This document shows positions 20,430 to 43,455 of a stretch of DNA of 55,213 nucleotides, in pieces (position 1 is the first letter of the stretch; every line of letters begins with the position of its first letter). The notes under the pieces were generated by a model. It saw only the letters and a program-made list of their open reading frames with translations, was not told the DNA's origin and did no database searches. Source of the stretch: a virus (lineage: Duplodnaviria; Heunggongvirae; Uroviricota; Caudoviricetes); the IMG/VR virus record IMGVR_UViG_2698536646_000013, one strand, 5' to 3'. The translations under genes were made by a program, and so were the position numbers.

Positions 20430-21199
20430 CTACACACACTGCTCCTGAAAATACTGGTCATCCAGTGCAAAGATCACTGCTTCAAATTCATCGCGCTCAA
20501 TCAATACCGGATGAGTGGCTAAATATTCATTTATCTCTGTCAGAGATAAAGGCAAAGGCACCCCAGCCATTCCAGCATAACGTCGGGCACGGGATATTAC
20601 CGAATAGGCGTACAACAACTCCTTAAGCACCGGGTCTATTTCTGGTTCCGGTATCGGTGGCAACCTGAGTTTTTCTCGCTTCCATCTTGCCTTTTCCCCC
20701 CTTTCTCCCCCGAACTCCGATAACCACCGCTGGGCAGCTATGGCTTTTTTATCGTATCCTGCTTCTGCTGCTCTTTACCCTGGGCGATGCTGGCTGCTTC
20801 TGCAAGGATCTGCCAGTACAACTCTGGATTCTGCTTAAGCAGCGCGATCCCTCGTTCTGCCGTATATTCCAGTGCAACCTCAACACCATTAACCAGTTCA
20901 CCAACCCCTTTCCAGTCTTTCAGCAGATAACGAGCGGCATTATCAATGAGTAAATCATCAACAGAATCCACCTCGGAAACCTTTGAAATATCAAACTCCT
21001 TCGTTCCGACGTGCAAACTGGCATCCATTTTCTCAATGTGGCGACGGATTAATGCATTACGGGAGCGATACTGATCGTTATCGCTGCTTGCCACCAACAG
21101 TTTTAACCCGTCTACAGGTTTTAAGTCCTTCATTGGCGTAAACCAGCGTTCTCCACCAATGATAATTTTCTGATTAAGAATAAACATCCATAACCTCAT
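20430..21199 (-). CDS. Tail assembly chaperone GT (programmed -1 frameshift product)
   Basis: The G frame runs 21199 to 20738. The -1 frame after the slippery site continues KKAIAAQRW...PPIPEPEIDPVLKELLYAY... to 20430. Confidence 0.7.
20738..21199 (-). CDS. G: Tail assembly chaperone G
   Basis: 153 aa ending ...QDTIKKP*, located between the major tail protein and the tape measure gene. Confidence 0.85.
   Translation of the reverse strand: MRLWMFILNQKIIIGGERWFTPMKDLKPVDGLKLLVASSDNDQYRSRNALIRRHIEKMDASLHVGTKEFDISKVSEVDSVDDLLIDNAARYLLKDWKGVGELVNGVEVALEYTAERGIALLKQNPELYWQILAEAASIAQGKEQQKQDTIKKP
20744..20750 (-). promoter_or_regulatory. Slippery heptamer A-AAA-AAG for the G/GT -1 frameshift
   Basis: On the minus strand the last codons of G read ata aaa aag cca tag. 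AAAAAAG lies in the zero frame 2 codons before the stop. Confidence 0.7.
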
Positions 21200-26114: not shown

Positions 26115-27230
26115 TTAAATCCCTGCTTTTCTGAATACCTGTGCATCACGCTCACGGAGCTGCTTCAGCGTCAGCCATTCGCCTTTATCGGTGTAAAATT
26201 CATCTGGCGACATACCACCATCCCGAATCAGCTTTGCTCGGCTTTCCCCCACAATCTGTTTTTGTCTGGTGTAAGGCTGACGCAAAAACCATTCCCTGTA
26301 GGTTGTATCTCCGGCCACCACGCCATCCATGCTGGCCCGCTCAGCCGGGGAAATATCGCGAACATCAATACCCAGTTCCTTCGCTGATTTCAGAATGAAC
26401 GTTTCCGTTGAGCGGCAGCAGAAATGAATTTTTCCCGGCCCCTGCAAATAAGGCACGCTGTGACCTACAGGTTTATTATTCAGCGTATATTTGAGGCGAT
26501 CCCTGATTCGACATTGTGGCGTAGTACGATTATCAAGCGTTGATAACCATTGCTTACCCTTAATCAAATCATTATTCGCGCTGGCAAAACTCTCACGGGC
26601 AGTAGCAGCAAGATGTCCAACCGCTGTTTTTGCAATGCTGGCCGCATTAGCCCGGCTCATCTGCAATGCACCATCCTGAAATCCCTTACTGACATGTCCC
26701 CGAATTTTTCTTGCGATCTGCTCATTGGTATCCCCCAGCAAAAAACCCTGACGCACTGTATTTGTTATGCGTCTGAGCCGATCCGCCTCAAGATCTGAGG
26801 CCCACTCACTGAGCAGTCGTCCCTGGAATGGTCGCGCCATTGCAGCGGCATAAAGTGCATCAGGAGAGATACCAACCAGAGGGTGAACATCAGCAACAAA
26901 ATCAGGTAGCATAGAATCAAACAGACTTAACTGATAACCAGCCTCATAAATTGCCAGCTCGTTCAGCTCTCCGGAGAGACTGGTAAACATGCTGTTAATA
27001 GCAGTGCGGTTAACCTCTCTGACGCTCGCCAGAAGTGACTCCAGGCGCTTAACGGTAAAACTACCTGGATCGAGGCTGTCCAGTGCTATCAGCAGGCGAG
27101 CAGTAAGTTCCGCATCGCTGTCATTCAGTATTTTCACCATTCTGGCAGCCACGCCAGTGCTATAGCGGGATATCCAGACTGCATGAGCAATTGATTCATC
27201 ACGCAGCCGTTCATTCACGGTTTGCATCAT
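26115..27230 (-). CDS. Head morphogenesis protein (Mu F-like / SPP1 gp7 family)
   Basis: 371 aa, downstream of portal, with conserved ...DNRTTPQCRIRD...HFCCRS... region. Confidence 0.8.
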   Translation of the reverse strand: MMQTVNERLRDESIAHAVWISRYSTGVAARMVKILNDSDAELTARLLIALDSLDPGSFTVKRLESLLASVREVNRTAINSMFTSLSGELNELAIYEAGYQLSLFDSMLPDFVADVHPLVGISPDALYAAAMARPFQGRLLSEWASDLEADRLRRITNTVRQGFLLGDTNEQIARKIRGHVSKGFQDGALQMSRANAASIAKTAVGHLAATARESFASANNDLIKGKQWLSTLDNRTTPQCRIRDRLKYTLNNKPVGHSVPYLQGPGKIHFCCRSTETFILKSAKELGIDVRDISPAERASMDGVVAGDTTYREWFLRQPYTRQKQIVGESRAKLIRDGGMSPDEFYTDKGEWLTLKQLRERDAQVFRKAGI

Positions 27231-28617
27231 TGATTTCCATCAGCATTACACTCTGATTTTTTAATTCATCGATCACTTCCTCTGGACGGGAATCCTGATC
27301 GATAAATTTCAACGCCTGCAACACCCGAACCGCATCAATCTGACGTATATCACCGCCCTGACGCAATGACTGAACAGCCAGCGCGGAGGATGAGTCAAAC
27401 ACCTGGGCAGATACATCCAGTTCAGTGCGCACATCCACATTGCCACCGCAACTCTCTCCGATCCATTCCGCCATTATCTGGAGAATATTATCGAGGGCAT
27501 CTTCGAGGGAGTTCGCCATTGTATAAAGCGGCGAGTTTTCCTGCATTCGCTCTTCATTAGTCTGATCAACAGATTTGGTGGATGTATTTTCAGCACGCAG
27601 AAGTTTAGCGCCGGCATGACGCATCTGATTTTCCAGCTTCTCAAGTGATGTTTCGCCAGATTCTATCGCTGCGCCACTATGTTCAACATATTCGAGGCCA
27701 TTTTTTGTTCTGTCCTCAAAAATCGTAGCGGTGGATGCACCAACCGTCAGTTCTTCATTCCTGTCCAGCCCGTAGGCCACCAGCAATGGAACGCGGGCAA
27801 CATGAAGAATATTGTCCTGCTCGCTCTGGCTTTGCCAGTGCTTGATATTCAGCAAGCCAAGATTAAGCAATGGCGGTGTACCACGCATAAATCCTGTTTT
27901 CTTCGTGTACAGTGTTACCAGAGGAATATCATCACGGCTGGTATTCCATGACTCATGAAGCGTCCAGACAGATTCGCCATTAGTGCCTTCGCTACGTCGA
28001 TAAATTTCAACTCGACGGGGCATAATATGGCGGATCTGCTCCACCTTCTTCTGCCCGAAATCATCACCATCAATAATGATGACCTCTTTTATACGCAAAT
28101 CAGTGAGAACAACTTTCCCTTTTTCAACTTTCGATTTCCATCCAATAACCTGGCGTGGATTCAGCATCGTAACGTACGGACGACCACCGGTCGCGTTTTC
28201 ATCGGCTTTTGTCCGAATCTCTTTCATATCCGTTCGTGGATAGTCCACCAGCGCATGTGCCACACCATACTGAAATGCGAGGCTGAAAAATTGCTGCGCC
28301 CACACATCCAGTCGGCTCCCCTCCATGTCGATATTTTCTGCATATTCCCTGATTTTTGCCGGCGTTTCCTCACTCAATACTGTCGGCTCTGCAAATATGC
28401 GCCCAATATTTTGCTTGATGCTTTCTTCATACACAGGAAGTAGCGTAGCCACAGACAGGCGTTTTTTATAAGCGTCTTCATCTTCGTTAGGCCATTTTGG
28501 GAGATAATTTTCCCCCTGCCTGCGCATTTCAAGCGTACCGCCCATCAGTGCGTCGTTAATATCCCACGCCTCCAGCATATCGTTATAGTCGAGGTTGGGT
28601 GTTGATATATCAGCCAT
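27211..28617 (-). CDS. Portal protein
   Basis: 468 aa, immediately downstream of the terminase large subunit. Confidence 0.85.
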   Translation of the reverse strand: MADISTPNLDYNDMLEAWDINDALMGGTLEMRRQGENYLPKWPNEDEDAYKKRLSVATLLPVYEESIKQNIGRIFAEPTVLSEETPAKIREYAENIDMEGSRLDVWAQQFFSLAFQYGVAHALVDYPRTDMKEIRTKADENATGGRPYVTMLNPRQVIGWKSKVEKGKVVLTDLRIKEVIIIDGDDFGQKKVEQIRHIMPRRVEIYRRSEGTNGESVWTLHESWNTSRDDIPLVTLYTKKTGFMRGTPPLLNLGLLNIKHWQSQSEQDNILHVARVPLLVAYGLDRNEELTVGASTATIFEDRTKNGLEYVEHSGAAIESGETSLEKLENQMRHAGAKLLRAENTSTKSVDQTNEERMQENSPLYTMANSLEDALDNILQIMAEWIGESCGGNVDVRTELDVSAQVFDSSSALAVQSLRQGGDIRQIDAVRVLQALKFIDQDSRPEEVIDELKNQSVMLMEINDANRE

Positions 28618-28619
28618 AA

Positions 28620-29930
28620 TTAAATCCGAAGTGATGTGACTCTTCCGGTCGGTTTGACAATAGGGAATTGCTTAACGATGAAATAACCTCCGGCATCATT
28701 CGGGTGATCATTGCCAGATTTTTTATCAGGCTCCCCCTTCTCATCCCAGACCTGTTGCTCCAGAGATTCGGCATATAACGGGCAACGCTTCACATTAACT
28801 TTATAGCGACGCTCACCATTGGCATTGCAGAACATTGCATTCATTGAGTTAACGCGATCTTTTACTGGCGGGTTCGAGCTGTTCACCACAACGTTAAAAC
28901 CAGCCTGCTTAAGCTGGGCTATATCCGTCGTACTTGCGTTACTTGATTTTCTGGAATCCCCGGAAGCATCTGGATAAATATAAATTTCCCTCACTTTCCG
29001 GTAATCATTCCCATCATACAGCCAGAAGCGTTCTTTAATGATGCGGATCATATCCGGCGTATCGTAGGCATTGATGATTTCAGTTACCGCACATGGAAGC
29101 CCCAAACGCAGCACATGGACGATTCCCGCCATCTTTCCAACGTTAAAATCCATCCCAATATAAATCGGCTCCCCTGGCTGCTCCACTTCTTCGCAATTAT
29201 TCAGTTTCCGGTCAAACTGATGGTAAACAGTACCACTTGTCAGGTTAGTAAACTGTCCTCGAAGATAGGCTTTAATCAGCTCTGGAGGGTATGATTCAAG
29301 AAGCGAAGGAATGTAATCTGCTGGCAGGTTCTTTTCATTATCGAAAGTAGATGCCTGCACCAGACCATACAGTGAGGCCAGCTCTGTTTTTTCACGCACG
29401 GCTTTAACAAACTGCTCGTAGACAAATTTGAATCCTTCCGGCGTGGTTGTAACGTCAATACCGTTGCGAAGTCCATCAATCTTATAACGCATACGTGCAA
29501 TTATCTTGCGCCACGCCGTTCTGGCTTTTTCCTTCGGCAAAATGTCCAGTTCATCCACCAACGCATTACCAATTTTGAAACCGACGATCGTTTGTGGCTT
29601 CTCCATCGATCTGCAGATAGTGGTTCCCCGATACTGGCGTCCGTAATAAAAGTGAACCTCTTTATTTCCCTCATTAATTTTTACGTTCAATCCCCAGTCA
29701 GCAGCAACTTCTTCCACTGTAGGGTAAAAAATATCGCGAATTTGGGGATACGTTGGCGCAAAATATCCCTGATTTATACCTGGATGCTCCCAAATCCCCT
29801 TGCATATGCCGCCACACCCAACCCATGTTTTGCCCGAGCCAAAACCAGCAATATAGGCTTTAAATTTATGGGGCATTGAAAGAAATCGCGCCTGAGGCAC
29901 ATTAAGCGTCGGAGAGATCATCTTCATCAC
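28620..29930 (-). CDS. Terminase large subunit
   Basis: 436 aa, Walker A AGFGSGKT and a C-terminal nuclease-like region. Confidence 0.9.
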   Translation of the reverse strand: MMKMISPTLNVPQARFLSMPHKFKAYIAGFGSGKTWVGCGGICKGIWEHPGINQGYFAPTYPQIRDIFYPTVEEVAADWGLNVKINEGNKEVHFYYGRQYRGTTICRSMEKPQTIVGFKIGNALVDELDILPKEKARTAWRKIIARMRYKIDGLRNGIDVTTTPEGFKFVYEQFVKAVREKTELASLYGLVQASTFDNEKNLPADYIPSLLESYPPELIKAYLRGQFTNLTSGTVYHQFDRKLNNCEEVEQPGEPIYIGMDFNVGKMAGIVHVLRLGLPCAVTEIINAYDTPDMIRIIKERFWLYDGNDYRKVREIYIYPDASGDSRKSSNASTTDIAQLKQAGFNVVVNSSNPPVKDRVNSMNAMFCNANGERRYKVNVKRCPLYAESLEQQVWDEKGEPDKKSGNDHPNDAGGYFIVKQFPIVKPTGRVTSLRI

Positions 29931-30996
29931 TCCTTACTCTGGCATCAACCACATTAATATTGATCGCCACAGGCTGGGGATGTTCATTATCTTCCACCGT
30001 TTCGATCTCTTTGCGCAGCTTCTGGTTTTCCATTCTGCGCCGTTCAATTTCCAGTTCCCGTAGCCGCTTATCTGCACATAAAGCCCCGCCAGCAGAAAAC
30101 AAACGCAACAATTCACGCCGGGCGGCAGCCTTATCCTCCAGCAGGATCTCAACGCCGAATTTTCCGAATTTTGCCCCTGCATATAATTGCCGCGCATCCC
30201 CATCAAGCAGAGTGGTATCAGCCATATAAAGCTGTCCCGTTCCCTCACCGCAGCACTTCGGGCAGTCCGGATTGGGTATGGCGTTATCAACAAAGCCGAG
30301 GCCTCCATATTCCGGTTCGGGTTTGCCATCTCTGGAAGCCTGCGCCGCTGCCTTGTCGAATTCTGCTATATCGCGCCACTGGTAGAGATGATTCTCGCCC
30401 CAGCAATAACGGCAGTTAACACGGCGAAATTGTGCAAGCTGATTGGGGTCGGCCAGGACAATAGCCATCAACTGACTCACTAGTAAATCCAGGTCTGCGG
30501 TATAGCGTTTCTGGTACTGATTGCGGAAGTAGCTGATAGCGCGAAAAACCCTGGCATTTCTAAGCATACGACTGGCGTTGCTGTTAGCTGTCGCACCTTG
30601 CCCCTCATAACCGGCTAGTCGGTACGCCTCTGTCGGCTTTTTACCCTGAGCAACAAGCATCGCAAACTTAGCCTGCTGGTCAGAAATGCCGAATTCATCG
30701 GGACAGAACGAAAATTCCTCCGCGTCGCCCTCATTCAGGCCCGCATCGAATACTGGCTTTTTTTCCTGAGATTTTTCGTTCCGCTTTTGTGCAGTCTGCG
30801 CAGATTTTTTCTGCGCACTTTTTTGCGCAGTTTTGCACATTTCTGTCTGCGCATTTTTCGGAGTTTTTTTGATGTAACGACGGGCTGTTGCGTAATTCAG
30901 TCCCCTTGCTTCACACCATGCCACCGGAGATATACCGGAGCGGGTGTATTCAGCAATATACTCCTGCTGCAACGCCCCCCAGTCCGGTCTGCTCAT
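29902..30996 (-). CDS. Putative terminase small subunit
   Basis: 364 aa, N-terminal HTH-like region and lysine-rich linker, directly upstream of the large subunit. Confidence 0.6.
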   Translation of the reverse strand: MSRPDWGALQQEYIAEYTRSGISPVAWCEARGLNYATARRYIKKTPKNAQTEMCKTAQKSAQKKSAQTAQKRNEKSQEKKPVFDAGLNEGDAEEFSFCPDEFGISDQQAKFAMLVAQGKKPTEAYRLAGYEGQGATANSNASRMLRNARVFRAISYFRNQYQKRYTADLDLLVSQLMAIVLADPNQLAQFRRVNCRYCWGENHLYQWRDIAEFDKAAAQASRDGKPEPEYGGLGFVDNAIPNPDCPKCCGEGTGQLYMADTTLLDGDARQLYAGAKFGKFGVEILLEDKAAARRELLRLFSAGGALCADKRLRELEIERRRMENQKLRKEIETVEDNEHPQPVAININVVDARVRSDEDDLSDA

Positions 30997-30999
30997 CAG

Positions 31000-31251
31000 T
31001 TAGTCCTGATTTTTATCCACCCTGAGTAGTTCGCGCAGAGCAAAGGCATCCCCTTTTCTGGCAAGCTTAAACAATGCCGCTCGTAACTCGGCTTCACCTT
31101 TCGCTCTGCCCTTACGGATGGCCGCATAAAAATCTGTCATTGCTTCCCGATTTTCTTTCAGTCGGTTCAGATCAACATCCAGAACGTCAGCGATTTGTTG
31201 TGCAGTCATCCGGCACGCTGCCAGAGACTCGACTTTCGAATACGGAATCAT
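31000..31251 (-). CDS. Small DNA-binding protein (possible packaging accessory)
   Basis: 83-aa ORF, may start internally at MTAQQIADVL (31209). HTH-like sequence. Confidence 0.5.
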   Translation of the reverse strand: MIPYSKVESLAACRMTAQQIADVLDVDLNRLKENREAMTDFYAAIRKGRAKGEAELRAALFKLARKGDAFALRELLRVDKNQD

Positions 31252-32137
31252 TTGTCACCCCCATTGATATGCAGGGTGTCTTCTTCCTGTATTTTTCGTG
31301 AAGGATTTTTACTGCAGCGTTGTTCCAGGTGACCTGATGGTGAATGCGTTTATGACTGGCACCCATAAGTGAGATTTTTACGCACGACGGCGCATACATG
31401 ACGGAGTAAAAACTTTTAACGTAGGTTCCGGAATCCAGATACAGCTCGGTCATTCCGCCGCTGTTTTTCTGCGTCTGTTTCTGCCCTAACTGGACAGCAC
31501 CGATCGTCATAAACAATTCACCACAGCGACCGAGATTCGTGTACGTATTCACATCCTCGTTAATGCGCCCCATGAATGAGAACGGTCGATCAACCGAACA
31601 GATAAAGCTGTTCATTGCCTTGCGTTTCACCCACGAAGCATGGCCGCCATTGTCACCAAGAAAATCCCCGCCCTGCGACATAGCGATGGAAAGAGCAGGT
31701 ATTGATTCGTAGTACGCAAGCATTTCAGAAAGGATCTCATCCAGTTTCCTTATCGGGAAATAGGCCTGGTCATAGTTGCGATCCACCCGAAACTGGAACT
31801 CGTGATAATCATCATCGAGCTGAATGAAGTATTTACACCCGACCAGTTTTGCCTGGTCGAAACAGGCATTACGGGCGTAAAAAATTGAGCGGCGGTCACT
31901 AAAATTATCGGCTTCGTCAAAACGACTAGCAATATCGGCTTTGGAAAATACCAGCACCTGTTCACCAAATTCAGCCATGTACTGATGCCGTGTCTTATCT
32001 TCATCATCAACAACGATAAAAATTTTCCCGGTATAGCCAGCACGACGCAACGTCCGGTAAGTCAGAACTTTGTCCGGTCGCCCGTGAGTCAGAATAAAGG
32101 CGCAAAAATCATCACGCATATTCCTCCTCCCCGCCAT
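31187..32137 (-). CDS. YdaY-like protein with glycosyltransferase-like (GT-A) motifs
   Basis: 316 aa, FILTHGRPD...IVVDDEDK...IQLDDDY (DxD-type motifs). Occupies the position of the Rac ydaY pseudogene between ynaK and the terminase. Confidence 0.65.
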   Translation of the reverse strand: MAGRRNMRDDFCAFILTHGRPDKVLTYRTLRRAGYTGKIFIVVDDEDKTRHQYMAEFGEQVLVFSKADIASRFDEADNFSDRRSIFYARNACFDQAKLVGCKYFIQLDDDYHEFQFRVDRNYDQAYFPIRKLDEILSEMLAYYESIPALSIAMSQGGDFLGDNGGHASWVKRKAMNSFICSVDRPFSFMGRINEDVNTYTNLGRCGELFMTIGAVQLGQKQTQKNSGGMTELYLDSGTYVKSFYSVMYAPSCVKISLMGASHKRIHHQVTWNNAAVKILHEKYRKKTPCISMGVTNDSVFESRVSGSVPDDCTTNR

Positions 32138-32900
32138 GCATGATCTCCACCATGCGCTGCGTCATTCGGACAAATCCATTTTCAATAGCCTGCTGATAAT
32201 CAATGATCACCAGCGCCGACTCCTCGAAAAGGCACTGAATTTCAGCGGGGGCATGAGCGTAATAGTCCGCAATTCTGCTGAAATTAAACACCGTGTGACG
32301 TTCTGCTGCACACAGGAGGAATTTCTCAATATCAGGATCAAGGGACGCCGAACGTATCCGGCTGATCAGCTCCTGAGTTTTCGTATCGTCGTACAGTTCA
32401 CTGATATCCGGTTTACCGCCTGACGGCTCATAAACAGGCGTATCAATTTTCGTCGTATACGGCTCCTCCTCATTTCCTGTACCGGGCAAAACATCCGTCA
32501 ACAGTTCATCAATTTCTGCCGGGATGAAGCCTGTCAGGGAGACATCAAAATCAGCATTGATTAGGTCCGACAGCTCCATCCGCAACAGATCTTCATCCCA
32601 GCCAGCATTCATCGGCAGGCGATTATCTGCCAGGCGGTACGCCTTTTTCTGCTCATCCGTCAGGCCAGACAGAACAATGACCGGAACAGAATCCATTTTG
32701 AGCATTTCAGCCGCCATAACACGACCGTGACCCGCAATAATTTCGCCCTTTTCGTCAATCAGCACCGGATTAGTCCAGCCGAATTGCTTAATACTTTCTA
32801 CCAGTTGTGCCACCTGCTCAGTACTGTGCGTCCTGGCGTTGTGCGCATACGGTGACAATTCTTGTAATGGGCGATAGACTATCTTTAATTTCTCGCTCAT
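32112..32900 (-). CDS. ParB-like nuclease domain protein (YnaK-like)
   Basis: 262 aa, N-terminal ParB/Srx signature LQELSPYAHNARTH...NPVLIDEKGEIIAGHGRVMAA. Confidence 0.8.
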   Translation of the reverse strand: MSEKLKIVYRPLQELSPYAHNARTHSTEQVAQLVESIKQFGWTNPVLIDEKGEIIAGHGRVMAAEMLKMDSVPVIVLSGLTDEQKKAYRLADNRLPMNAGWDEDLLRMELSDLINADFDVSLTGFIPAEIDELLTDVLPGTGNEEEPYTTKIDTPVYEPSGGKPDISELYDDTKTQELISRIRSASLDPDIEKFLLCAAERHTVFNFSRIADYYAHAPAEIQCLFEESALVIIDYQQAIENGFVRMTQRMVEIMHGGEEEYA

Positions 32901-33037
32901 ACAGCCTTGCTTTATGAATAAAACGCACCCCAGCAGCCAGTGCTACTGGGGGCGGAGGTGTTGCTGGTAAAGTTAGGTATTGGATCAATGAGTGAGTCAA
33001 CATAATATTAAACTCACAATTATAAATCAGCCATATA

Positions 33038-34495
33038 TTAGGAGCGCCAAAAAAAACCTGAAAACAATATAATAACAGGATAAATTTCAAGGCGACCAAG
33101 AATCATAGCTATGCACATTAAATATTTTGCAATGTCATTAAGCACTCCGAATGACGATGCAGTAGCCCCAAAACCTAATCCCATATTATTAATACATGCA
33201 GCCACTGTTGCAAATGATGTAAGAAAATCATATCCCATACCATTTAACACCAGTATAAAAAACACCGTGAAGAGAGTATAAAGAAAAAAGAAACTCCATA
33301 CAGACCTCATTACACGATCTGTAACTATCTTCCCTCCTACATTTACACTCAACAACGCTCTGGGATGAGAAAGCTGATTTATCTCGTGTTTGCTTTGTTT
33401 GAAAAGTATAAGAAATCGAAGTGACTTAATTCCACCACAGGTTGAACCTATACATCCCCCAAAGAAACTTGACAACAGCAAAAACACTATCGTGTGCGTG
33501 GGCCAGTTTGCATAATCCTGCGTAGCTAAACCATTATCAGTGAGCATGGAGCTGGCAAGAAAAAACGAATGAATAAAACTTCCATGCAAGTCATACATAC
33601 CTATATGCCAGACCTGGAAAGAGGTAACAATGATCACCCCTAAGGCTATTAACAGAAAGAAACGAAGTTCAATATCTCTGATTAAAGGTTTTATCGTTTT
33701 TCTGCTAATAACAATATACCAAAGAGTGAAGTTGAAAGCCGATAGCAGGGAAAAAGAACCAGCCACCAGCTCAACCAAATAGTTATTAAAATATCCGATA
33801 CTCTCGCTATGAGTTGAGAAACCACCAAGCGAAACTGTGGAAATCCCGTGACAAATAGCATCAAACAAAGGCATTCCTGCAAGTCTATAACAGACAATAC
33901 AAGCAATACCTAATAAAGAATAAGTTATCCACAGTGTCCGTGACGTATCGGCCAGGCGGGGAGTGAGTTTGTCATCCTTAAATGGCCCCGGCATTTCTGA
34001 CTGATAAAGCTTTGCACCACCAATACCCAATAATGGCAATACTGCAACCGCCAGAACAATAACTCCTAAACCACCTATAAAATTTAACTGTGACCGATAG
34101 TACAAATATGCCCGAGGTAATGAACTAACATCATCAATTACAGTTGCTCCTGTTGTTGTTATTCCAGAAACCCCTTCAAACAGAGCATCAATGAACGTTA
34201 AATTAAGTTCTGAGTCAATCCATAAAGGGAATGCACTAATAACAGAAAACAAAATCCAAAACATTACAATTATAATAAACCCATCACGGGTACGTAATTG
34301 AATGCCAGATTTCTTAGTTGTATACCACGCTCCGCCACCAATGCAAAAAAATATAACGAAAGTTATAAAGAAAACGAACAGGCTTTTTTCTTTATAAAAC
34401 AATGCTACAACCATTGGTGGCAACATTGAAAGACTATAGAGCCAAACCAGGAACCCACACATATGAGTAACAACTCTTACATGAGATGTATTCAT
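33038..34495 (-). CDS. trkG: Trk-system potassium uptake protein TrkG
   Basis: 485 aa from MNTSHVRVVTHMCGFLVWLYS (ATG 34495), multi-pass TrkH/TrkG transporter. trkG is a known Rac prophage gene. Confidence 0.9.
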   Translation of the reverse strand: MNTSHVRVVTHMCGFLVWLYSLSMLPPMVVALFYKEKSLFVFFITFVIFFCIGGGAWYTTKKSGIQLRTRDGFIIIVMFWILFSVISAFPLWIDSELNLTFIDALFEGVSGITTTGATVIDDVSSLPRAYLYYRSQLNFIGGLGVIVLAVAVLPLLGIGGAKLYQSEMPGPFKDDKLTPRLADTSRTLWITYSLLGIACIVCYRLAGMPLFDAICHGISTVSLGGFSTHSESIGYFNNYLVELVAGSFSLLSAFNFTLWYIVISRKTIKPLIRDIELRFFLLIALGVIIVTSFQVWHIGMYDLHGSFIHSFFLASSMLTDNGLATQDYANWPTHTIVFLLLSSFFGGCIGSTCGGIKSLRFLILFKQSKHEINQLSHPRALLSVNVGGKIVTDRVMRSVWSFFFLYTLFTVFFILVLNGMGYDFLTSFATVAACINNMGLGFGATASSFGVLNDIAKYLMCIAMILGRLEIYPVIILFSGFFWRS

Positions 34496-34632
34496 ATCTA
34501 AATATTCTTTCAATTATAACCACCTTGCTGCAATATTATGATTATACTGTATAAAATTTAACTCCTCTTAGATCTTACTTCACTGTTCCTTATGAAACAA
34601 TCATCAAAATGAATCATATTGTAGTTAAGATT

Positions 34633-35097
34633 TTACTTTAAACACTGCTCGGTTATGTATTGCTGAGCACCTTCAAGTTGGGCCTGCATCATTACCAGTC
34701 GTTCCCGGAGGGTGAAATAATCCCGTTCAGCGGTGTCTGCCAGTCGGGGGGAGGCTGCATTATCCACGCCGGAGGCGGTGGTGGCTTCACGCACTGACTG
34801 ACAGACTGCTTTGATGTGCAACCGACGACGACCAGCGGCAACATCATCACGCAGAGCATCATTTTCAGCTTTCGCATCAGCTAACTCCTTCGTGTATTTT
34901 GCATCGAGCGCAGCAACATCACGCTGACGCATCTGCATGTCAGTAATTGCCGCGTTCGCCAGCTTCAGTTCTCTGGCATTTTTGTCGCGCTGGGCTTTGT
35001 AGGTAATGGCGTTATCACGGTAATGATTAACAGCCCATGACAGGCAGACGATGATGCAGATAACCAGAGCGGAGATAATCGCGGTTACTCTGTTCAT
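34633..35097 (-). CDS. Spanin inner-membrane subunit Rz
   Basis: [38 protein letters not shown]..., phage-21-type Rz. ATG overlaps the endolysin stop (ATGA). Confidence 0.85.
34692..34877 (-). CDS. Spanin outer-membrane lipoprotein Rz1, embedded in Rz in the +1 frame
   Basis: 61 aa, lipobox LVVVGC and proline-rich [18 protein letters not shown], entirely inside Rz. Confidence 0.8.
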
Positions 35098-35591
35098 TGC
35101 TGACCCCACAAACAGATTTCACGCTCAATCTCACGACGAGTCATGAGACCTTTCCATTGCTTACCGCCAGCATATGTCCAGCGACGTAGCTGATCACATG
35201 CGCCTTTGATATCGCCCTGGTTTATTTTGCGAAGAAGCGTCGATGTTCTGAAATTGCCAGCACCCACGTTGTAAACGAATGAGTAAAGAGCGCCGCGCGT
35301 TGTTTCCGGTATATCGACTTTGATGTACGGGTTAATTTGTCTGGCGACAGTGGCAAGGTCTTTATTCAAGAGTGTTTTGCATTCTGCTTTGGTATACGTT
35401 TTACCGAGCATGATGTCTTTTCCTGTATGCCCGTGACATACAGTCCATACACCAACAATATCTTTGTATGGTATGTAGCTGACACCTTCCAGACCATCGT
35501 TACCACTTGGGCCAGTGATTAACACTGATGCTATAGCAATTGCTCCGCCACCAATAGCAGCAGCAACGACTTTTCGTAATGATGGAGGCAT
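35094..35591 (-). CDS. SAR endolysin (T4-type lysozyme fold)
   Basis: 165 aa, N-terminal signal-anchor-release segment [18 protein letters not shown], then a lysozyme core. Phage-21-R-like. Confidence 0.9.
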
Positions 35592-35806
35592 TATTCACCT
35601 CTCGCAGCCTTGCGCTTATCTTCTTTAATCTTGAAATAAAGGTTTGTCAGGTACGTCAGCAGGCCAAATACCAGACTACCCAGCACACCGATTGCAGCCC
35701 ACTGTGACGGAGTTACTCTATCGAGCAACTGTAAAAACCAGTAGCCAGCACTGCCTGCGGAGGTGCCGTAGGCAATGCCTGTTGAAATTTTGTCCATGGA
35801 TTTCAT
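35591..35806 (-). CDS. Class II holin (pinholin, phage-21-S-like)
   Basis: Start [14 protein letters not shown] with dual starts M1 and M4 (antiholin/holin). RBS GGAGGTGAGG. The ORF table shows a longer upstream extension. Confidence 0.85.
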
Positions 35807-35904
35807 AGCCTCACCTCCGCACGGAACGGATGGCATAGTTATTATGTGTAGGCTTTCAGACACATCAATCAGAGCCTTAATTGATATATATGCTGGAGAC
35901 GATG

Positions 35905-36057: not shown

Positions 36058-36453
36058 CTAACCTCGCATGTCAAAGCCAGATTTCTGAAAATCTCTGTAG
36101 ACTTCCGGATTGTTGAAGGCCGGAAATTTGGCTTTATGAGCTGCGGACTTTATCGCTTCGCAATAGGCTTTATCACCGTTACTGGTAGATATTTTTAACG
36201 CCGTGCCATCCTGAGAGAATTCCATATGCAACCTGCATTTTTTCCCTTTCCAGTTATGCGGCTCATCAAGTTTGGCATTAATTGCAGCTCTGATTCCCCG
36301 CGCTTGCGCCCCCCATTCATCCTGATCATCCCAGCGTCCTGAACTGCAACTACCTGTAGCAGTAGTTTTGTGGCAATCTGAAGGGTGTAAAGGTGTGCAT
36401 CCCGCAACAAAACCGACCCAAAAAGTCAACATAACGATTTTCTTTAATCCCAC
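36058..36453 (-). CDS. Lipoprotein with TolA C-terminal (domain III)-like region, paralogue 1
   Basis: 131 aa, lipobox FVAGC, C-terminus ...GKKCRLHMEFSQDGTALKIS...FPAFNNPEVYRDFQKSGFDMRG. Paralogous to the next gene. Confidence 0.8.
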   Translation of the reverse strand: MGLKKIVMLTFWVGFVAGCTPLHPSDCHKTTATGSCSSGRWDDQDEWGAQARGIRAAINAKLDEPHNWKGKKCRLHMEFSQDGTALKISTSNGDKAYCEAIKSAAHKAKFPAFNNPEVYRDFQKSGFDMRG

Positions 36454-36603: not shown

Positions 36604-37032
36604 TCAGGGTTTAAAATCCAGCACCCCATTTTGAAATACTTTATATACTTCCGGCGAAGGGGGGGCAGGTATATCAGCATTCTTTATCGCATTCATCGCT
36701 TCACGACATAAATCGAGGTCTCCACTTTCTCTTTTAACCTCCAGTAGAAGGCCATTCGGGGCCATATGCATTCTCAGTGTACACTCTTTTCCTGAATACT
36801 TACTCGCATCCCCGAACTGTTTTTCGATGGCGCTCTTGATTTGATGGGCATACAGACGGATATCCTCACTAACATCAGAAGTACGTTCAGATGAACTCAC
36901 ATACTGTGTCTCTATTGCTTTATCGGAGTAATATGATGTACGGTCATGATAATTTGTCGATACAGCATCAGTGCACCCGATAATAATCCCACTAATAATC
37001 AACGTAAGAATTGATGCGCTACGAAAACCCAT
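36604..37032 (-). CDS. Lipoprotein with TolA C-terminal (domain III)-like region, paralogue 2
   Basis: 142 aa, lipobox IIGC, C-terminus YAHQIKSAIEKQFGDASKYSGKECTLRMHMAPNGLLLEVK...IPAPPSPEVYKVFQNGVLDFKP, which resembles the TolA C-terminal domain as I recall it. Confidence 0.8.
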   Translation of the reverse strand: MGFRSASILTLIISGIIIGCTDAVSTNYHDRTSYYSDKAIETQYVSSSERTSDVSEDIRLYAHQIKSAIEKQFGDASKYSGKECTLRMHMAPNGLLLEVKRESGDLDLCREAMNAIKNADIPAPPSPEVYKVFQNGVLDFKP

Positions 37033-41277: not shown

Positions 41278-42279
41278 TTAGTAATCTGCGTGTTTCGCAC
41301 TTTTCAGAAATGCTTTCATATTTTCATTAGGTCGCTCAATTTCGAAGTTACTTCCATATAACTCTTGTAATTTTGGCCATAACTTACTTAATAACCCTCT
41401 CCTGCGATAAAATGGATGTATCCAAACGGTAGATAGGTACGGAGAATTTGCATTTGAATTGTTTATTGTGACCAGCCCAACTAAACATTGTCGATAACCA
41501 CTATTATCCATTGATTGTATTTCTTCGACGAATGGATACGCGATTACATCAGTCCAACCATGATCGGTTGTATCCCATTGCATTCCGTCATGACATTCCT
41601 TCGACTGATAGCGGCGTAAAGCTACACACGCGAGCTTTTGCCAATCTGGAGAATTAATTGTGATCTCTTCATCGTATGACGCGCCTATTGGAGCGGGTAT
41701 TGGTCTGATTAATCCAGCATGGCATTCATCATAGAACTTCATGTTTCCCTCAGAAACGTTGTGTACGTTGGGTTGCTCCATGTGTGCGCCATTCAAAAAT
41801 AGCTCTGATAGTAGTGTATCTACACTGTAATCTTTATTGATTATTGTCGGCTTAGAGTTTTTCTTATTAAGGCCGCGAGTAACGATTTTTTGATCAATGT
41901 TAACAACATGGAATAATCCGTCGGGGAGGCTAGCGAACCACGATGGGGCATCGGACCAGAATAGCATGCCTTTTGTACTTCTTAAGAGTTTAATTAAGTT
42001 AATACAAGCTTCTTCACTAGTCTTGCCGTTGATGCGAAGTATGTTAGGACTAAAGTAATATTCATCCATATCAGGGAATGCAGCTTCGCAAAACTCCTGT
42101 ACATAATTTAGCACCTGGATTCTACAGAGATCATCATAGCTGGTAATAACTAAGGGGGTATCTTCATTACTATTATGATTATCAATAATGCAATCTATAG
42201 CGAGACTTACTGCTTTGCGTATCACTTCAGTTGAATCTAACGACTCTAAAAATTTTGTCTTTCGTGTGCGAATATCCAT
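41278..42279 (-). CDS. Hypothetical protein, possible GNAT-like C-terminus (second gene of AT-rich cargo operon)
   Basis: 333 aa. C-terminal LVGLVTINN...VWIHPFYRRRGLLSKLW loosely resembles GNAT motif A. N-terminal 200 aa have no recognisable family. 15-bp gap to the upstream gene. Confidence 0.7.
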   Translation of the reverse strand: MDIRTRKTKFLESLDSTEVIRKAVSLAIDCIIDNHNSNEDTPLVITSYDDLCRIQVLNYVQEFCEAAFPDMDEYYFSPNILRINGKTSEEACINLIKLLRSTKGMLFWSDAPSWFASLPDGLFHVVNIDQKIVTRGLNKKNSKPTIINKDYSVDTLLSELFLNGAHMEQPNVHNVSEGNMKFYDECHAGLIRPIPAPIGASYDEEITINSPDWQKLACVALRRYQSKECHDGMQWDTTDHGWTDVIAYPFVEEIQSMDNSGYRQCLVGLVTINNSNANSPYLSTVWIHPFYRRRGLLSKLWPKLQELYGSNFEIERPNENMKAFLKSAKHADY

Positions 42280-42294
42280 GTATGACCTGCGCTA

Positions 42295-43317
42295 TTAAAA
42301 TTCATGAATGAACGGTTTGTCATCTGGTTGCAAAATGGTGGTTTTATTCGTTGCTACATTTAAACTGTTGTAGAGCATAATTGCCAGGTTCGATGCATTT
42401 TCAATCAGCGTTTCAAGATCCTGGTCTGTAATCACTACGAGGTTCCCTTCTTTATCCTTTCCACCACGATGCACTAAGTGATTTCGATTGAGGGTTGCCA
42501 ATTCAATAGCTTCTATCGGACAGTCTTTTTGTACTTTTATATCGAATGTAGCTTCATAGCGGTCGATTACCTTTTTAGTGCTATGCCAGCTTGCACTGAT
42601 CAAGTGTTCCTTGATTGACCTGATTAGCTCTCCCCTAATTTTCTCGATGGGTTCACCCTTGAAAGGCAACGCAGCAATATCTTTGCTTACTTTAAATTCA
42701 GTCTTACCTTTTTCTATACAATTGGCTATGTAGACATCATCTTTCTCTATAGAATTAATGAATAGCTCAACATAAAGCGTTTCCAAAGCTGTAATAACAT
42801 TCGTGTAGAGCAAACTAAGCAAGTGGTTTTTTTGCTGTTGTTCAGTTTTATCTTTTGCAAGTTTTTTTATTTTATCGATATTATCAATGAATTTTAAATA
42901 CGGATTACCGGAAGACGTTACAGCGTCGTAGATATCATCATCGTACCAATCATCTATATTATTTGAGTTTCCAGACCAGTCAAAACATTGTGTTTGTAAT
43001 TCATCTACTAATTCCTCAATATACTCAGATTTAACATATTGACCGAAGATGGATTGTAGTTCTTCGCTCGCATCATACGGCCCGCCATATATGTAAGCAT
43101 AGCCACCTTCTCTACTTTCATACGGACAAGCATTTGCCGGATCTTCAAAGTTTTCAAAGAACCAGTTTTTCATTACTTCGAGTTGATCTTTTTTGCTTAT
43201 GTATTTTAAAGATTTTAGTGGAACTTTCTTTCCATTAACCTCGAAAACAATTTTCACGATGTAACGCTCCCTTGTATCAATTGCGCAACTATTATACCAC
43301 AGCGAAATACAGGGCAT
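42295..43317 (-). CDS. Hypothetical protein with HEPN-type RNxxxH motif (first gene of AT-rich cargo operon)
   Basis: 340 aa from MPCISLWYN (ATG 43317, RBS AAGGAGG). C-terminal ...ELATLNRNHLVHRGG... contains R-N-x3-H. AT-rich relative to flanking phage genes. Confidence 0.7.
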   Translation of the reverse strand: MPCISLWYNSCAIDTRERYIVKIVFEVNGKKVPLKSLKYISKKDQLEVMKNWFFENFEDPANACPYESREGGYAYIYGGPYDASEELQSIFGQYVKSEYIEELVDELQTQCFDWSGNSNNIDDWYDDDIYDAVTSSGNPYLKFIDNIDKIKKLAKDKTEQQQKNHLLSLLYTNVITALETLYVELFINSIEKDDVYIANCIEKGKTEFKVSKDIAALPFKGEPIEKIRGELIRSIKEHLISASWHSTKKVIDRYEATFDIKVQKDCPIEAIELATLNRNHLVHRGGKDKEGNLVVITDQDLETLIENASNLAIMLYNSLNVATNKTTILQPDDKPFIHEF

Positions 43318-43455
43318 AACCTGCCTCCTTAAACTAACATACCATGAGCCAGCAATGTCCGCTATTGGCACAAAGCGGACAACCACGCTAGCTCTCCCCT
43401 GTGCCAGAAAAATGTCAATTTACATATGAACTAATGCTCTTTGATCTAGTAACGT

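What the first reader, a model, noticed from the sequence alone, without database searches (positions are those of the whole stretch)
31187..32900. ParB-like nuclease domain protein plus GT-A-like YdaY homologue, just upstream of the terminase genes
The 262-aa protein has a ParB/sulfiredoxin-type N-terminal domain. The adjacent 316-aa protein has glycosyltransferase-like DxD motifs (IVVDDEDK, IQLDDDY). In K-12 Rac these positions hold degraded fragments (ynaK, ydaY); here both are full length. ParB-like domains paired with sugar-transferase-like enzymes beside packaging genes suggest a DNA-modification or packaging-associated function.
Basis: inference. Interest (0 to 1): 0.45.

Follow-up and report, generated by a model that had tools for sequence, protein, structure and literature searches.

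The report
ParB-partnered DNA glycosyltransferase cassette in prophage
A Rac-type E. coli prophage carries, just ahead of its DNA-packaging genes, a tightly coupled gene pair (a ParB-like adaptor and a TAGT-family sugar transferase). The same pair is found in phages of many bacterial phyla and in an archaeal virus. It most likely puts sugars on phage DNA, although the usual hydroxymethyl-base acceptor is nowhere encoded.

Summary
Both ORFs exist exactly where stated, on the minus strand. The 262-aa protein has a ParB/Srx NTP-binding fold. The 316-aa ORF (real start probably M7, giving 310 aa) is a GT-A glycosyltransferase of Pfam TAGT (PF20691). It carries the R…DDD…ED[Y/F] motifs shared with known DNA glycosyltransferases.

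The "YdaY homologue" label is wrong. K-12 ydaY is the 3' part of a tail-region gene. It became joined to the first 85 codons of the ParB gene by an ~11.6-kb deletion.

New here: the pair is an obligate, translationally coupled cassette. TAGT was preceded by the ParB-like gene in 42/42 loci from diverse phyla. A previously undescribed C-terminal domain of the ParB-like protein was followed by TAGT in 80/80 viral loci. One Vibrio phage keeps that domain and TAGT but has no ParB domain.

The cassette usually sits directly upstream of the terminase genes, whatever the terminase family. No TET/5mYOX, thymidylate-synthase-like or C5-methylase gene accompanies it.

Best reading (confidence about 0.5): a ParB-activated DNA glycosyltransferase, analogous to the published ParB-dependent phage thymine dioxygenases, with an unknown acceptor. 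I rate it a new variant of a known kind. It is testable in E. coli.

The parts
32112..32900 (-). Gene for the 262-aa ParB-like protein (full-length form of K-12 ynaK). Layout: NTP-binding ParB/Srx domain, helical extension, disordered linker, conserved C-terminal domain.
   Evidence: ORF. Pfam ParB_N and phrog_620 hits. AF2 mean pLDDT 80.4 with domain boundaries. Foldseek hits to ParB-CDP 6sdk, 7bnk, 7bm8, Noc and KorB.
32496..32900 (-). ParB/Srx nucleotide-binding domain plus helical extension (residues ~1-135). The same subtype is fused to DNA methyltransferases in other phages.
   Evidence: phrog_498 'DNA methyltransferase' E 6e-51 over residues 3-141. PADLOC MTase_II model E 1.5e-38 over residues 10-144. 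Alignment to Spo0J: GERRxRA becomes GHGRVMA and ENLQR becomes ADNRL. N21, G57 and N93 are conserved across phyla. This is the fastest-evolving part of the cassette, at 30% mean pairwise identity.
32424..32459 (-). Invariant linker motif Y-T-x-K-I-x-x-P-x-Y-E-P (residues 148-159) in a predicted disordered segment. It is a candidate docking peptide for the glycosyltransferase, or alternatively an acceptor site.
   Evidence: Y148, P155 and Y157 are invariant and K151 nearly so in 28 sequences from many phyla. pLDDT is below 50 for residues 137-153. The motif is retained in the CTD-only protein of Vibrio phage pv27.
32166..32423 (-). Conserved helical C-terminal domain (residues ~160-245) with motifs FLxxAAxRH, IAEFYAH, SALVIID and AIENGF. 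It has no Pfam model and is the obligate partner of this TAGT clade.
   Evidence: No Pfam hit. 1195 clusters at 50% identity with E<=1e-3, almost always at a protein's C-terminus. TAGT follows immediately in 80/80 viral loci retrieved with this domain. The pv27 partner is this domain alone, E 6e-57. Mean identity is 47%, against 30% for the N-domain. No relative in the PDB by sequence.
32112..32130 (-). Translational-coupling junction. Shine-Dalgarno GGAGGAGGAA lies at 32130..32121, the TAGT ATG at 32119..32117 and the ParB stop TGA at 32114..32112 (overlap ATGCGTGA).
   Evidence: Read directly from the sequence. Overlapping or abutting stop and start are the rule in the 42 + 80 related loci.
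31187..32119 (-). Gene for the TAGT-family GT-A glycosyltransferase (310 aa from the ATG at 32119; the mechanical ORF from 32137 gives 316 aa). PGAP calls it 'GREB1-related protein'.
   Evidence: Pfam PF20691 at 118.8 bits, E 4e-34. phrog_842 E 8e-104. Invariant R20, DDEDK 44-48, DExDNF 74-79, DDD 108-110, E194-D195...Y199 and RIHH 264-267. AF2 model plus Foldseek GT-A hits.
32928..32951 (-). Terminator-like hairpin between the low-GC trkG moron and the ParB gene. It marks the upstream boundary of the cassette and is context, not a working part.
   Evidence: Consensus scan. GC drops to 36-40% over trkG.

Best explanation
The two genes encode a two-subunit nucleic-acid (most likely DNA) glycosyltransferase.

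Proposed mechanism:
- The TAGT subunit is a GT-A Leloir enzyme that transfers a sugar from an NDP-sugar.
- The ParB-like subunit is its cognate adaptor or activator. Its conserved C-terminal domain and linker motif hold the enzyme. Its fast-evolving ParB/Srx NTP-binding domain brings the complex onto double-stranded phage DNA.
- This parallels the published ParB proteins that activate phage thymine dioxygenases on dsDNA, and the ParB domains fused to phage DNA methyltransferases.
- The genes are translated as a coupled pair at the head of the late (packaging) operon, so replicated DNA would be modified just before it is packaged. The presumed benefit is protection from host nucleases.
- Because no hydroxymethyl-pyrimidine pathway accompanies the cassette, the acceptor is not the classical 5hmC or 5hmU made by a neighbouring enzyme. 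It remains unknown.

Shown here: family and fold of both proteins, catalytic motifs, coupling, obligate pairing, position, and absence of partner enzymes.

Inferred: DNA as substrate, the activator role of the ParB-like protein, timing, and biological benefit.
For: 1. TAGT membership and GT-A fold, with invariant R...DDD...ED[Y/F]. These are the same motifs reported for phage GT-A DNA glycosyltransferases and trypanosome JGT (bioRxiv 10.1101/2023.12.21.572611).
2. Obligate pairing in both directions. A ParB-like gene lies immediately upstream of TAGT in 42/42 loci from Proteobacteria, Bacteroidota, Firmicutes, Chlorobi, Planctomycetes, Spirochaetes, Actinobacteria, Saccharibacteria and an archaeal MAG. 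TAGT lies immediately downstream of the CTD in 80/80 viral loci. The pair is also present in cultured phages c5 and phi jlb1 and in haloarchaeal virus HHTV-2.
3. Domain logic. Vibrio phage pv27 keeps CTD + TAGT without the ParB domain. CTD is conserved almost like TAGT (47% vs 52% mean identity), while the ParB domain diverges to 30%.
4. The ParB N-domain subtype is the one fused to DNA methyltransferases (PMC12704722).
5. The protein has the same NBD, disordered linker and CTD layout, without a DNA-binding domain, as the ParB activators of 5mYOX T-dioxygenases, which are needed specifically on dsDNA (PMC13229309; AF2 model).
6. Neighbours are always DNA-centred. Terminase genes of several unrelated families are the commonest; in pv27 the neighbours are primase, exonuclease and helicase.
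7. In a Virgibacillus element an NDP-sugar epimerase/dehydratase and a sugar-phosphate nucleotidyltransferase are fused into the same operon directly upstream.
8. SD sequence and stop/start overlap in the window.
Against: - No 5mYOX/TET, thymidylate-synthase-like hydroxymethylase or C5-methyltransferase was found in the window.
- None appears in the whole genomes of phages c5 and phi jlb1.
- None appears among the neighbour families listed.
- Every characterised DNA-acting TAGT relative needs a hydroxymethyl or sugar hydroxyl as acceptor, and no GT-A enzyme is known to glycosylate canonical DNA.
- One family member, GREB1, glycosylates a protein (PMC7968844).
- No experimental report of modified DNA in any phage carrying the cassette was found.
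- The GxxR motif of the ParB domain is not conserved in all relatives.
- The C-terminal third of the TAGT model is of low confidence.
Confidence: 0.5

Rival explanations
1. Protein glycosylation. TAGT glycosylates a protein rather than DNA, for instance the invariant Tyr/Thr-containing linker of its ParB-like partner (glycogenin-like priming) or another phage or host protein. The ParB-like protein would then be the substrate or a substrate adaptor.
For: GREB1, a TAGT-family member, O-GlcNAcylates ER-alpha (PMC7968844). An invariant Y-T-x-K-I-x-x-P-x-Y-E-P motif sits in a disordered segment next to the enzyme's obligate partner domain. No DNA acceptor pathway is encoded. Glycogenin is among the structural hits, although it is a generic GT-A match.
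Against: This does not explain why a ParB/Srx domain of the subtype fused to DNA methylases is attached in 78 of the 80 CTD-retrieved viral loci and accompanies TAGT in all 42 genome loci. It also does not explain the DNA-centred neighbourhoods. No common candidate target protein exists across phages with unrelated terminases and capsids.
Confidence: 0.15
2. Classical hydroxymethyl-pyrimidine glycosylation with a hidden precursor source. The cassette glycosylates 5hmU or 5hmC made by an unrecognised, highly divergent dioxygenase or by an enzyme encoded elsewhere in the phage or host.
For: Characterised TAGT relatives act on 5hmU (JGT), on 5hmC, or on glucosyl-5hmC in T2/T6 (PMC13216743). PMC13229309 reports thousands of 5mYOX-like contigs lacking a Pfam TET/JBP annotation. 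My neighbour census lists only the 25 commonest families of each set.
Against: Small complete genomes (c5 at 31.8 kb, phi jlb1 at 38 kb, and the ~50-kb prophage here) have no candidate. The cassette moves as a two-gene unit among phages of many phyla with variable upstream neighbours. E. coli itself is not known to make 5hmC or 5hmU (established knowledge).
Confidence: 0.12
3. Non-DNA nucleic-acid or small-molecule substrate. The pair glycosylates RNA, a nucleotide, or a signalling molecule (for example as an anti-defence function), with the ParB/Srx domain acting as an NTP-binding switch rather than a DNA loader.
For: ParB/Srx folds bind CTP, ATP or GTP and occur in non-DNA enzymes such as Srx and SerK (PMC12704722; Foldseek hits). 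The acceptor is unknown. The strong conservation of TAGT across phyla (52% mean identity) fits a universal substrate.
Against: No precedent exists in the TAGT family. There is no PADLOC or defence-context signal for TAGT. The consistent placement with packaging or replication genes points to DNA.
Confidence: 0.1
4. Packaging accessory. The ParB-like protein is a nuclease or DNA-binding helper of the terminase, in the way HNH proteins help in HK97-like phages, and the glycosyltransferase is incidental.
For: The cassette lies directly 5' of TerS/TerL in most loci. In phage c5 these are the first two genes after cos.
Against: The neighbouring terminases belong to unrelated Pfam families (Terminase_6, Terminase_3, GpA, T7-type, TerL_ATPase). 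The strictly conserved partner is TAGT, not a terminase. In pv27 the pair is in the replication module and lacks the ParB domain. The cassette decays in some Lactobacillus phages (split or remnant genes in phiLdb, Ld17, Ld25A). I did not test whether these remain viable. No nuclease signature was found.
Confidence: 0.06
5. Partition protein or transcriptional regulator, as many database records name it ('chromosome (plasmid) partitioning protein', 'transcriptional regulator').
For: ParB_N domain. Source names.
Against: No ParA partner appears in the annotated prophage region, and no HTH domain or classical ParB C-terminal dimerisation domain was detected. TIGR00180 scores 38 bits against a cut-off of 58. 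The element is an integrating prophage. The obligate partner is a glycosyltransferase.
Confidence: 0.02

Closest known systems
ParB-dependent phage 5mYOX thymine dioxygenases (5mYOX176/ParB176; O'Toole et al., PNAS 2026, PMC13229309)
   Same: A phage ParB-like protein is built as nucleotide-binding domain, unstructured linker and C-terminal domain, with no DNA-binding domain. It is encoded next to a post-replicative DNA-modifying enzyme. It is needed as a cognate activator on dsDNA, and terminase genes are frequent neighbours. The window protein has the same predicted layout.
   Different: The partner here is a GT-A glycosyltransferase, not an Fe/2OG dioxygenase, and no dioxygenase is present. 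In that paper, ParB-dependent clusters are linked to kinases and amino-acid:DNA transferases, whereas GTs go mostly with ParB-independent enzymes. Whether the two C-terminal domains are homologous was not tested.
Phage ParB_N - N6/N4 DNA methyltransferase fusions (phrog_498; PADLOC MTase_II PDLC03229; Kaljevic et al., PNAS 2025, PMC12704722)
   Same: Same ParB N-domain subtype (E 6e-51 and 1.5e-38 over residues ~3-144). Enriched in prophages. A ParB fold is coupled to a DNA-modifying catalytic module.
   Different: Here the catalytic module is a separate polypeptide, joined through a dedicated adaptor domain and translational coupling. The chemistry is sugar transfer, not methyl transfer.
T2/T6 beta-glucosyl-HMC-alpha-glucosyltransferase (Ggt), the source of the PHROG/RefSeq label
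   Same: Both are members of Pfam PF20691 with a GT-A fold (PMC13216743).
   Different: The relationship is very distant. T6 Ggt scores 35.8 bits on the TAGT model against 118.8 for the window protein, and hhalign probability is 0.1. T6 Ggt works on alpha-glucosyl-5hmC and is encoded next to dCMP hydroxymethylase, near alpha-GT. None of these is present here, and T6 has no ParB/CTD partner gene next to ggt.
TET/5mYOX-associated phage GT-A glycosyltransferases and trypanosome base-J glucosyltransferase JGT (Pyle et al., bioRxiv 10.1101/2023.12.21.572611)
   Same: GT-A fold and R...DDD...ED[Y/F] active-site pattern. They act post-replicatively on DNA. 'ParB-like' and 'terminase' were listed among their neighbours.
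   Different: Those enzymes use 5hmC or 5hmU made by an adjacent methylase/dioxygenase or a ThyS homologue. About 65% of the GT contigs in that survey lacked such a neighbour and were left unexplained. This cassette belongs to that unexplained set.
'Solitary TAGT' phages noted in Nucleic Acids Res 2026 (PMC13216743)
   Same: TAGT homologues occur without alpha-GT or beta-GT in 288 of 753 phage genomes, and their function was stated as undefined.
   Different: That paper does not describe the ParB/CTD partner, the coupling or the terminase-proximal position.

Membership tests
Pfam PF20691 TAGT (TET-associated glycosyltransferase; includes JGT, GREB1 C-terminal domain, T2/T6 Ggt) | Match to the family HMM above the curated gathering score | tested here: met
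   118.8 bits against a cut-off of 27.5, E 4.1e-34, residues 14-228 covering profile positions 4-205 of 205. PGAP and UniRef name it 'GREB1-related protein' or 'TAGT domain-containing'.
Pfam PF20691 TAGT | GT-A fold with a DxD motif and the R...DDD...ED[Y/F] catalytic pattern | tested here: met
   AF2 model is confident for residues 1-155. Foldseek PDB hits are all GT-A (SpsA at E 4e-5, and others). BFVD top hits are TAGT-domain proteins. R20, D108-D110, E194, D195 and Y199 are invariant in 16 homologues. The motif definition comes from bioRxiv 10.1101/2023.12.21.572611.
Pfam PF20691 TAGT | Genomic association with a TET/JBP (5mYOX) dioxygenase or another source of hydroxymethyl-pyrimidine | tested here: not met
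   None in the window. None in whole genomes of phages c5 and phi jlb1. None among the listed neighbour families of about 95 divergent loci. Caveat: those lists show only the 25 commonest families.
Pfam PF20691 TAGT | Transfer of a sugar onto a base in DNA | not testable with these tools
   Needs nucleoside LC-MS or an in vitro assay.
T2/T6 beta-glucosyl-HMC-alpha-glucosyltransferase (label of phrog_842 and of RefSeq phage records) | Close sequence relationship to T6 Ggt, and co-occurrence with dCMP hydroxymethylase and alpha-GT | tested here: not met
   hhalign of A2 against T6 Ggt gives probability 0.1. T6 Ggt scores only 35.8 bits on the TAGT model. tblastn of the window protein finds no T-even phage except Aeromonas phage 65 at 23% identity. 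No gp42 or alpha-GT homologue is annotated in the prophage.
ParB/Srx superfamily (ParB-CTPase fold, PF02195) | HMM match and fold | tested here: met
   PF02195 at 29.3 bits against a cut-off of 26.3. Foldseek gives 6sdk, 7bnk, 7bm8 and 8qa8 with rmsd 2.8-3.0 over ~140 columns, then Srx and SerK.
ParB/Srx superfamily | Conserved NTP-binding residues (Box I xPR, Box II GxxR, Box III N) | tested here: inconclusive
   In close relatives R23, G57-H58-G59-R60 and D92-N93 are conserved. Across phyla only N21, G57 and N93 stay (nearly) invariant, and some members lack the Box II arginine. The catalytic Glu of GERR is His here. Binding itself was not testable.
Canonical partition ParB (TIGR00180; ParABS) | HTH DNA-binding domain, C-terminal dimerisation domain, ParA partner | tested here: not met
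   TIGR00180 scores 38.1 bits against a cut-off of 58.45 and covers only the N-domain. There is no Pfam HTH or ParB_C hit. No parA is annotated in the prophage region covered.
ParB-type activators of phage DNA-modifying enzymes (PMC13229309) | NBD + unstructured linker + CTD without a DNA-binding domain, encoded next to the cognate DNA-modifying enzyme | tested here: met
   AF2: residues 1-135 structured, 137-153 disordered, 160-240 structured. The glycosyltransferase gene is adjacent and overlapping. Adjacency holds in 122/122 loci.
ParB-type activators of phage DNA-modifying enzymes | The partner enzyme requires the ParB protein for activity on dsDNA | not testable with these tools
   Needs co-expression or in vitro reconstitution.
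ParB-type activators of phage DNA-modifying enzymes | C-terminal domain homologous to that of the 5mYOX-associated ParBs | not tested
   Sequences of ParB176 and its relatives were not retrieved.
   K-12 ydaY aligns base-for-base to window ~20738-21089, the 153-aa tail-region gene, and not to 31187-32137. PGAP places ydaY there in strain EC2.

The most novel reading that the evidence does not exclude
The ParB(CTD)-TAGT pair is self-sufficient and glycosylates DNA that carries no hydroxymethyl precursor. That would mean a canonical base (for example N-glycosylation of an exocyclic amine) or another universal DNA position. It would be a previously unknown kind of enzymatic DNA glycosylation, present in phages of many bacterial phyla, in an archaeal virus, and in a prophage found in about 16% of complete E. 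coli genomes.
Probability: 0.2. Interest if true: 0.9.

Novelty: new variant of a known kind. Interest (0 to 1): 0.62.

Why it matters
Two recent surveys left most phage GT-A/TAGT genes unexplained because they lack a neighbouring dioxygenase, hydroxymethylase or alpha/beta-GT. About 65% of GT-containing contigs had no 5mYOX or ThyS neighbour, and 288 of 753 phage genomes have a 'solitary' TAGT.

This cassette gives that set a defined, portable two-gene unit with a dedicated adaptor domain. It also extends the newly found principle that ParB-like proteins activate DNA-modifying enzymes from dioxygenases to glycosyltransferases.

The cassette sits in an inducible Rac-type prophage present in 867 of 5426 complete E. 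coli genomes, and K-12 has deleted it cleanly. That makes the question 'what is the acceptor?' directly testable by co-expression plus nucleoside mass spectrometry in a standard host.

If the acceptor turns out to be unmodified DNA, that would be new DNA chemistry. It would bear on restriction evasion, on sequencing artefacts, and on enzymatic DNA-labelling tools.

The work also corrects misleading annotations: 'partitioning protein', 'beta-glucosyl-HMC-alpha-glucosyltransferase', and ydaY as a GT fragment.

Tried and rejected
- YdaY homology of the 316-aa protein: rejected by DNA alignment and junction mapping.
- Direct relationship to T6 Ggt: hhalign found nothing. Only the shared Pfam family links them.
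- PDB sequence searches. TAGT profile: no relative. CTD profile: only spurious coiled-coil hits such as FadA.
- PADLOC: no defence-system model matches TAGT, the 83-aa ORF, or the two early hypothetical proteins.
- NCBIfam: nothing for TAGT.
- Search for TET, ThyS or C5-methylase in neighbours and whole genomes: none found.
- Iyer et al. 2013 (NAR 41:7635), which defined TAGT and may already mention ParB neighbours, could not be opened. Priority for the ParB-TAGT association therefore cannot be excluded.
- The AFDB50 fold library was unavailable.
- The C-terminal ~95 residues of the TAGT model are unreliable (pLDDT below 50), so I draw nothing from them.
- A mirror-tree style correlation of CTD and TAGT distances was weak (r 0.26). 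I do not use it as evidence of interaction.
- 3'-OH or DNA-end glycosylation was considered and set aside, because it would block ligation of cos ends (reasoning only).
- Seroconversion or surface-glycan GT was considered and set aside. There is no Gtr-type partner in the annotated prophage, and the partner is a DNA-type ParB domain. I did not check the protein for membrane segments.


Full report
**1. What is there**

On the minus strand the window reads, in order:
- lysis genes (35863..34633)
- the low-GC trkG moron (34513..33038)
- a 262-aa ORF (32900..32112)
- a 316-aa ORF (32137..31187)
- an 83-aa ORF (31251..31000)
- TerS (30996..29902), TerL (29930..28620) and portal (28617..27211)

The element is a Rac-type lambdoid prophage carrying recET, kilR, sieB and ydaSTUV. 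The 2.2-kb stretch around the two genes is at least 80% covered in 867 of 5426 complete E. coli genomes. It also occurs in ten deposited phage records (nine Escherichia, one Salmonella).

**2. The K-12 comparison is wrong in one half**

K-12 ynaK is identical to the first 254 nt of the 262-aa gene, down to window 32647. The K-12 sequence then resumes at window 21089, inside a 153-aa gene between the tail tube and tape-measure genes.

K-12 YdaY is the C-terminal ~119 residues of that protein. An ~11.56-kb deletion with 2-nt microhomology therefore removed two thirds of the ParB-like gene, the whole glycosyltransferase, and the terminase, portal, head and tail-tube genes.

PGAP annotates ydaY at the tail gene in the 100%-identical strain EC2. 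It names the 316-aa protein 'GREB1-related protein' there.

**3. The glycosyltransferase**

- It matches Pfam PF20691 (TET-Associated GlycosylTransferase) at 118.8 bits, and phrog_842 end to end.
- More than 7,700 homologues were scored. Typical length is ~288 aa, with 46-80% identity across phyla.
- Sixteen homologues share invariant R20, DDEDK (44-48), DExDNF (74-79), YARNAC, QLDDDY (106-111), QGGD, RKAMN, GRINEDVNTY (190-199) and RIHH.
- This includes the R...DDD...ED[Y/F] pattern that Pyle et al. describe for phage GT-A DNA glycosyltransferases and JGT.
- The AF2 model is good for residues 1-155 and poor after 222.
- It retrieves only GT-A enzymes from the PDB, and TAGT-domain phage proteins followed by other viral GT-A enzymes from BFVD.
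- The real start is probably the ATG at 32119. It has a GGAGGAGGAA Shine-Dalgarno sequence and overlaps the upstream stop codon (ATGCGTGA).

The common label 'beta-glucosyl-HMC-alpha-glucosyltransferase' is an over-annotation. T6 Ggt reaches only 35.8 bits on the TAGT model and shows no direct similarity to this clade.

**4. The ParB-like protein**

- Residues 1-135 form a ParB/Srx NTP-binding fold plus helices. Best structural matches are CTP/CDP-bound ParB, Noc, PadC and KorB, then Srx and SerK.
- This N-domain is the subtype fused to DNA methyltransferases: phrog_498 at E 6e-51 and PADLOC MTase_II at E 1.5e-38.
- Residues 137-153 are predicted disordered and carry an invariant YTxKIxxPxYEP motif.
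- Residues 160-240 form a confident helical domain with no Pfam model and no PDB relative by sequence.
- That C-terminal domain (CTD) defines a family of 1195 clusters at 50% identity. Most members are 250-300 aa with the CTD at the C-terminus, and a minority of 128-200 aa are CTD-only.

**5. The pair is an obligate cassette**

- In 42 of 42 loci found with TAGT in one-genome-per-species data, a homologue of the 262-aa protein lies immediately upstream on the same strand. The genes overlap or abut.
- Those loci come from Enterobacterales, Bacteroidales, Firmicutes, Chlorobi, Desulfovibrionaceae, Planctomycetes, Ignavibacteria, Spirochaetes, Actinobacteria, Saccharibacteria and an archaeal MAG.
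- In the reverse direction, 80 of 80 viral loci found with the CTD alone have TAGT immediately downstream: 78 with ParB_N + CTD and 2 with CTD only.
- Cultured phages show the same pair. In Lactobacillus phage c5, ORF1 and ORF2 are the first genes after cos. It is also present in phi jlb1 and in haloarchaeal virus HHTV-2.
- In Vibrio phage pv27 the partner is a 139-aa protein made only of the linker motif and the CTD (E 6e-57). The pair sits between primase/exonuclease and helicase genes.
- Across 108 loci, mean pairwise identity is 52% for TAGT, 47% for the CTD and 30% for the ParB domain.

So the CTD is the conserved partner of the enzyme. The ParB domain is a separable, faster-evolving module.

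**6. Context**

- The ORFs downstream of the cassette are most often TerS-like and then TerL, but of different families: Terminase_6, Terminase_3, GpA, T7-type and TerL_ATPase.
- Upstream neighbours vary: SSB, VRR-NUC, DnaB, PolA and lysis genes.
- No Tet_JBP, thymidylate-synthase-like or C5-methylase family appears in those lists. None appears in the window or in the complete genomes of c5 and phi jlb1. The lists are limited to the 25 commonest families.
- In one Virgibacillus element, an NDP-sugar epimerase/dehydratase and a nucleotidyltransferase are joined directly upstream in the same overlapping gene string. This fits an NDP-sugar-using enzyme.

**7. What is known**

- O'Toole et al. (PNAS 2026, PMC13229309) showed that phage ParB-like proteins with the NBD-linker-CTD layout and no DNA-binding domain are cognate activators of 5mYOX thymine dioxygenases, specifically on dsDNA. 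NTP-site mutants still worked.
- Kaljevic et al. (PNAS 2025, PMC12704722) found ParB folds fused to DNA methylases to be enriched in prophages.
- Pyle et al. noted ParB-like and terminase genes near phage GT-A genes. They left ~65% of GT contigs, those without 5mYOX or ThyS, unexplained.
- An NAR 2026 paper noted 288 of 753 phage genomes with solitary TAGTs of undefined function.
- None of these describes the ParB(CTD)-TAGT two-gene unit.
- Iyer et al. 2013, which defined TAGT and proposed that ParB directs modification machinery, could not be read.

**8. Interpretation**

The best-supported model (confidence ~0.5) is a two-subunit DNA glycosyltransferase.
- TAGT is the catalytic subunit.
- The CTD and linker of the ParB-like protein bind it.
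- The ParB domain engages DNA.
- Expression from the head of the late operon lets replicated DNA be modified before packaging.

The weak point is the acceptor, because no hydroxymethyl-pyrimidine source is encoded.

Rival explanations:
- protein glycosylation, including of the invariant Tyr/Thr linker (0.15)
- a hidden precursor pathway (0.12)
- a non-DNA substrate (0.10)
- a packaging helper (0.06)
- a partition or regulator role (0.02)

The most novel reading not excluded is direct glycosylation of unmodified DNA (probability ~0.2).

**9. Verdict**

The packaging idea is not supported.

The system is a new variant of known kinds (ParB-activated DNA modification; TAGT DNA glycosylation). It has an unexplained acceptor and an easy experimental route in E. 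coli.

Noticed in passing
window 3297-5196 (+), next to the integrase at 1668-2765 and dusA at 542-1579: A SLATT_5 two-TM effector gene (183 aa, E 1.3e-28) overlaps a reverse-transcriptase gene (458 aa, RVT_1 E 7e-21). Both lie beside a dusA-adjacent integrase. This looks like an RT-based anti-phage defence pair on the prophage end or on a separate islet.
   Followed up: no
window 41278-43386 (-): Two adjacent hypothetical genes (333 aa and 363 aa) lie in the early region. They have only sub-threshold hits to GNAT (E 9e-4) and the HEPN/RES N-terminal domain (E 2e-4), and no PADLOC match. They may be an uncharacterised accessory or defence pair. One is frameshifted in strain EC2.
   Followed up: partly
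window 33038-34513 (-) and hairpin 32928-32951: trkG (TrkH family, E 1e-144) is a low-GC (36-40%) moron inserted between the lysis genes and the ParB-TAGT cassette. It is followed by a terminator-like hairpin.
   Followed up: partly
window 31000-31251 (-): A small ORF (83 aa; PGAP aa) lies between TAGT and TerS. It matches only an internal piece of a TerS PHROG (phrog_309, profile positions 145-218 of 319, E 8e-23). It is conserved in Enterobacterales cassette loci but not in other phyla, and it overlaps the E. coli-specific C-terminal extension of TAGT.
   Followed up: partly
L001 21744-22001 (strain EC2, corresponding to window 32643-32900): PGAP annotates the intact 262-aa ParB-like gene of strain EC2 as a truncated pseudogene 'ynaK, missing C-terminus'. 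The DNA is 100% identical to the window, where the ORF is complete. This may be an artefact of using the 87-aa K-12 protein as evidence; I did not check PGAP's evidence.
   Followed up: partly
K-12 ynaK (L002 3991-4254), corresponding to window 32647-32900: A 2026 overexpression screen reports that K-12 ynaK raised the MIC of six antibiotics (PMC12924614). In K-12 this gene encodes only an 87-aa fragment of the ParB NTP-binding domain with a junction-derived tail.
   Followed up: no
window 36058-36453 and 36604-37032 (-): Two paralogous small proteins lie upstream of the lysis cassette. PGAP annotates them as TolA C-terminal-domain proteins, and their N-termini look like lipoprotein signal sequences by eye. 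They may be Tol-Pal mimics or superinfection-exclusion candidates.
   Followed up: no
L097 3587-6852 (Virgibacillus sp. plasmid pCBA3643-01): An NDP-sugar epimerase/dehydratase and a sugar-phosphate nucleotidyltransferase are fused into the same overlapping operon directly upstream of ParB-CTD and TAGT, ahead of TerS/TerL. This suggests that lineage supplies a dedicated sugar donor.
   Followed up: partly
phage records H59-H67 and H74 (Lactobacillus delbrueckii phages phiLdb, Ld17, LL-Ku, Ld25A): In several dairy Lactobacillus phages the TAGT gene is split into two pieces or reduced to a 45-residue remnant, while c5 and PMBT4 keep it intact. The cassette may therefore be dispensable and decaying in that lineage; I did not test phage viability.
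   Followed up: no
window 1668-2765 and 53978-55213: The window holds two tyrosine integrases, one beside dusA at the left end and one Rac intR-like at the right end. The region may therefore be a composite of two integrated elements rather than one prophage.
   Followed up: no
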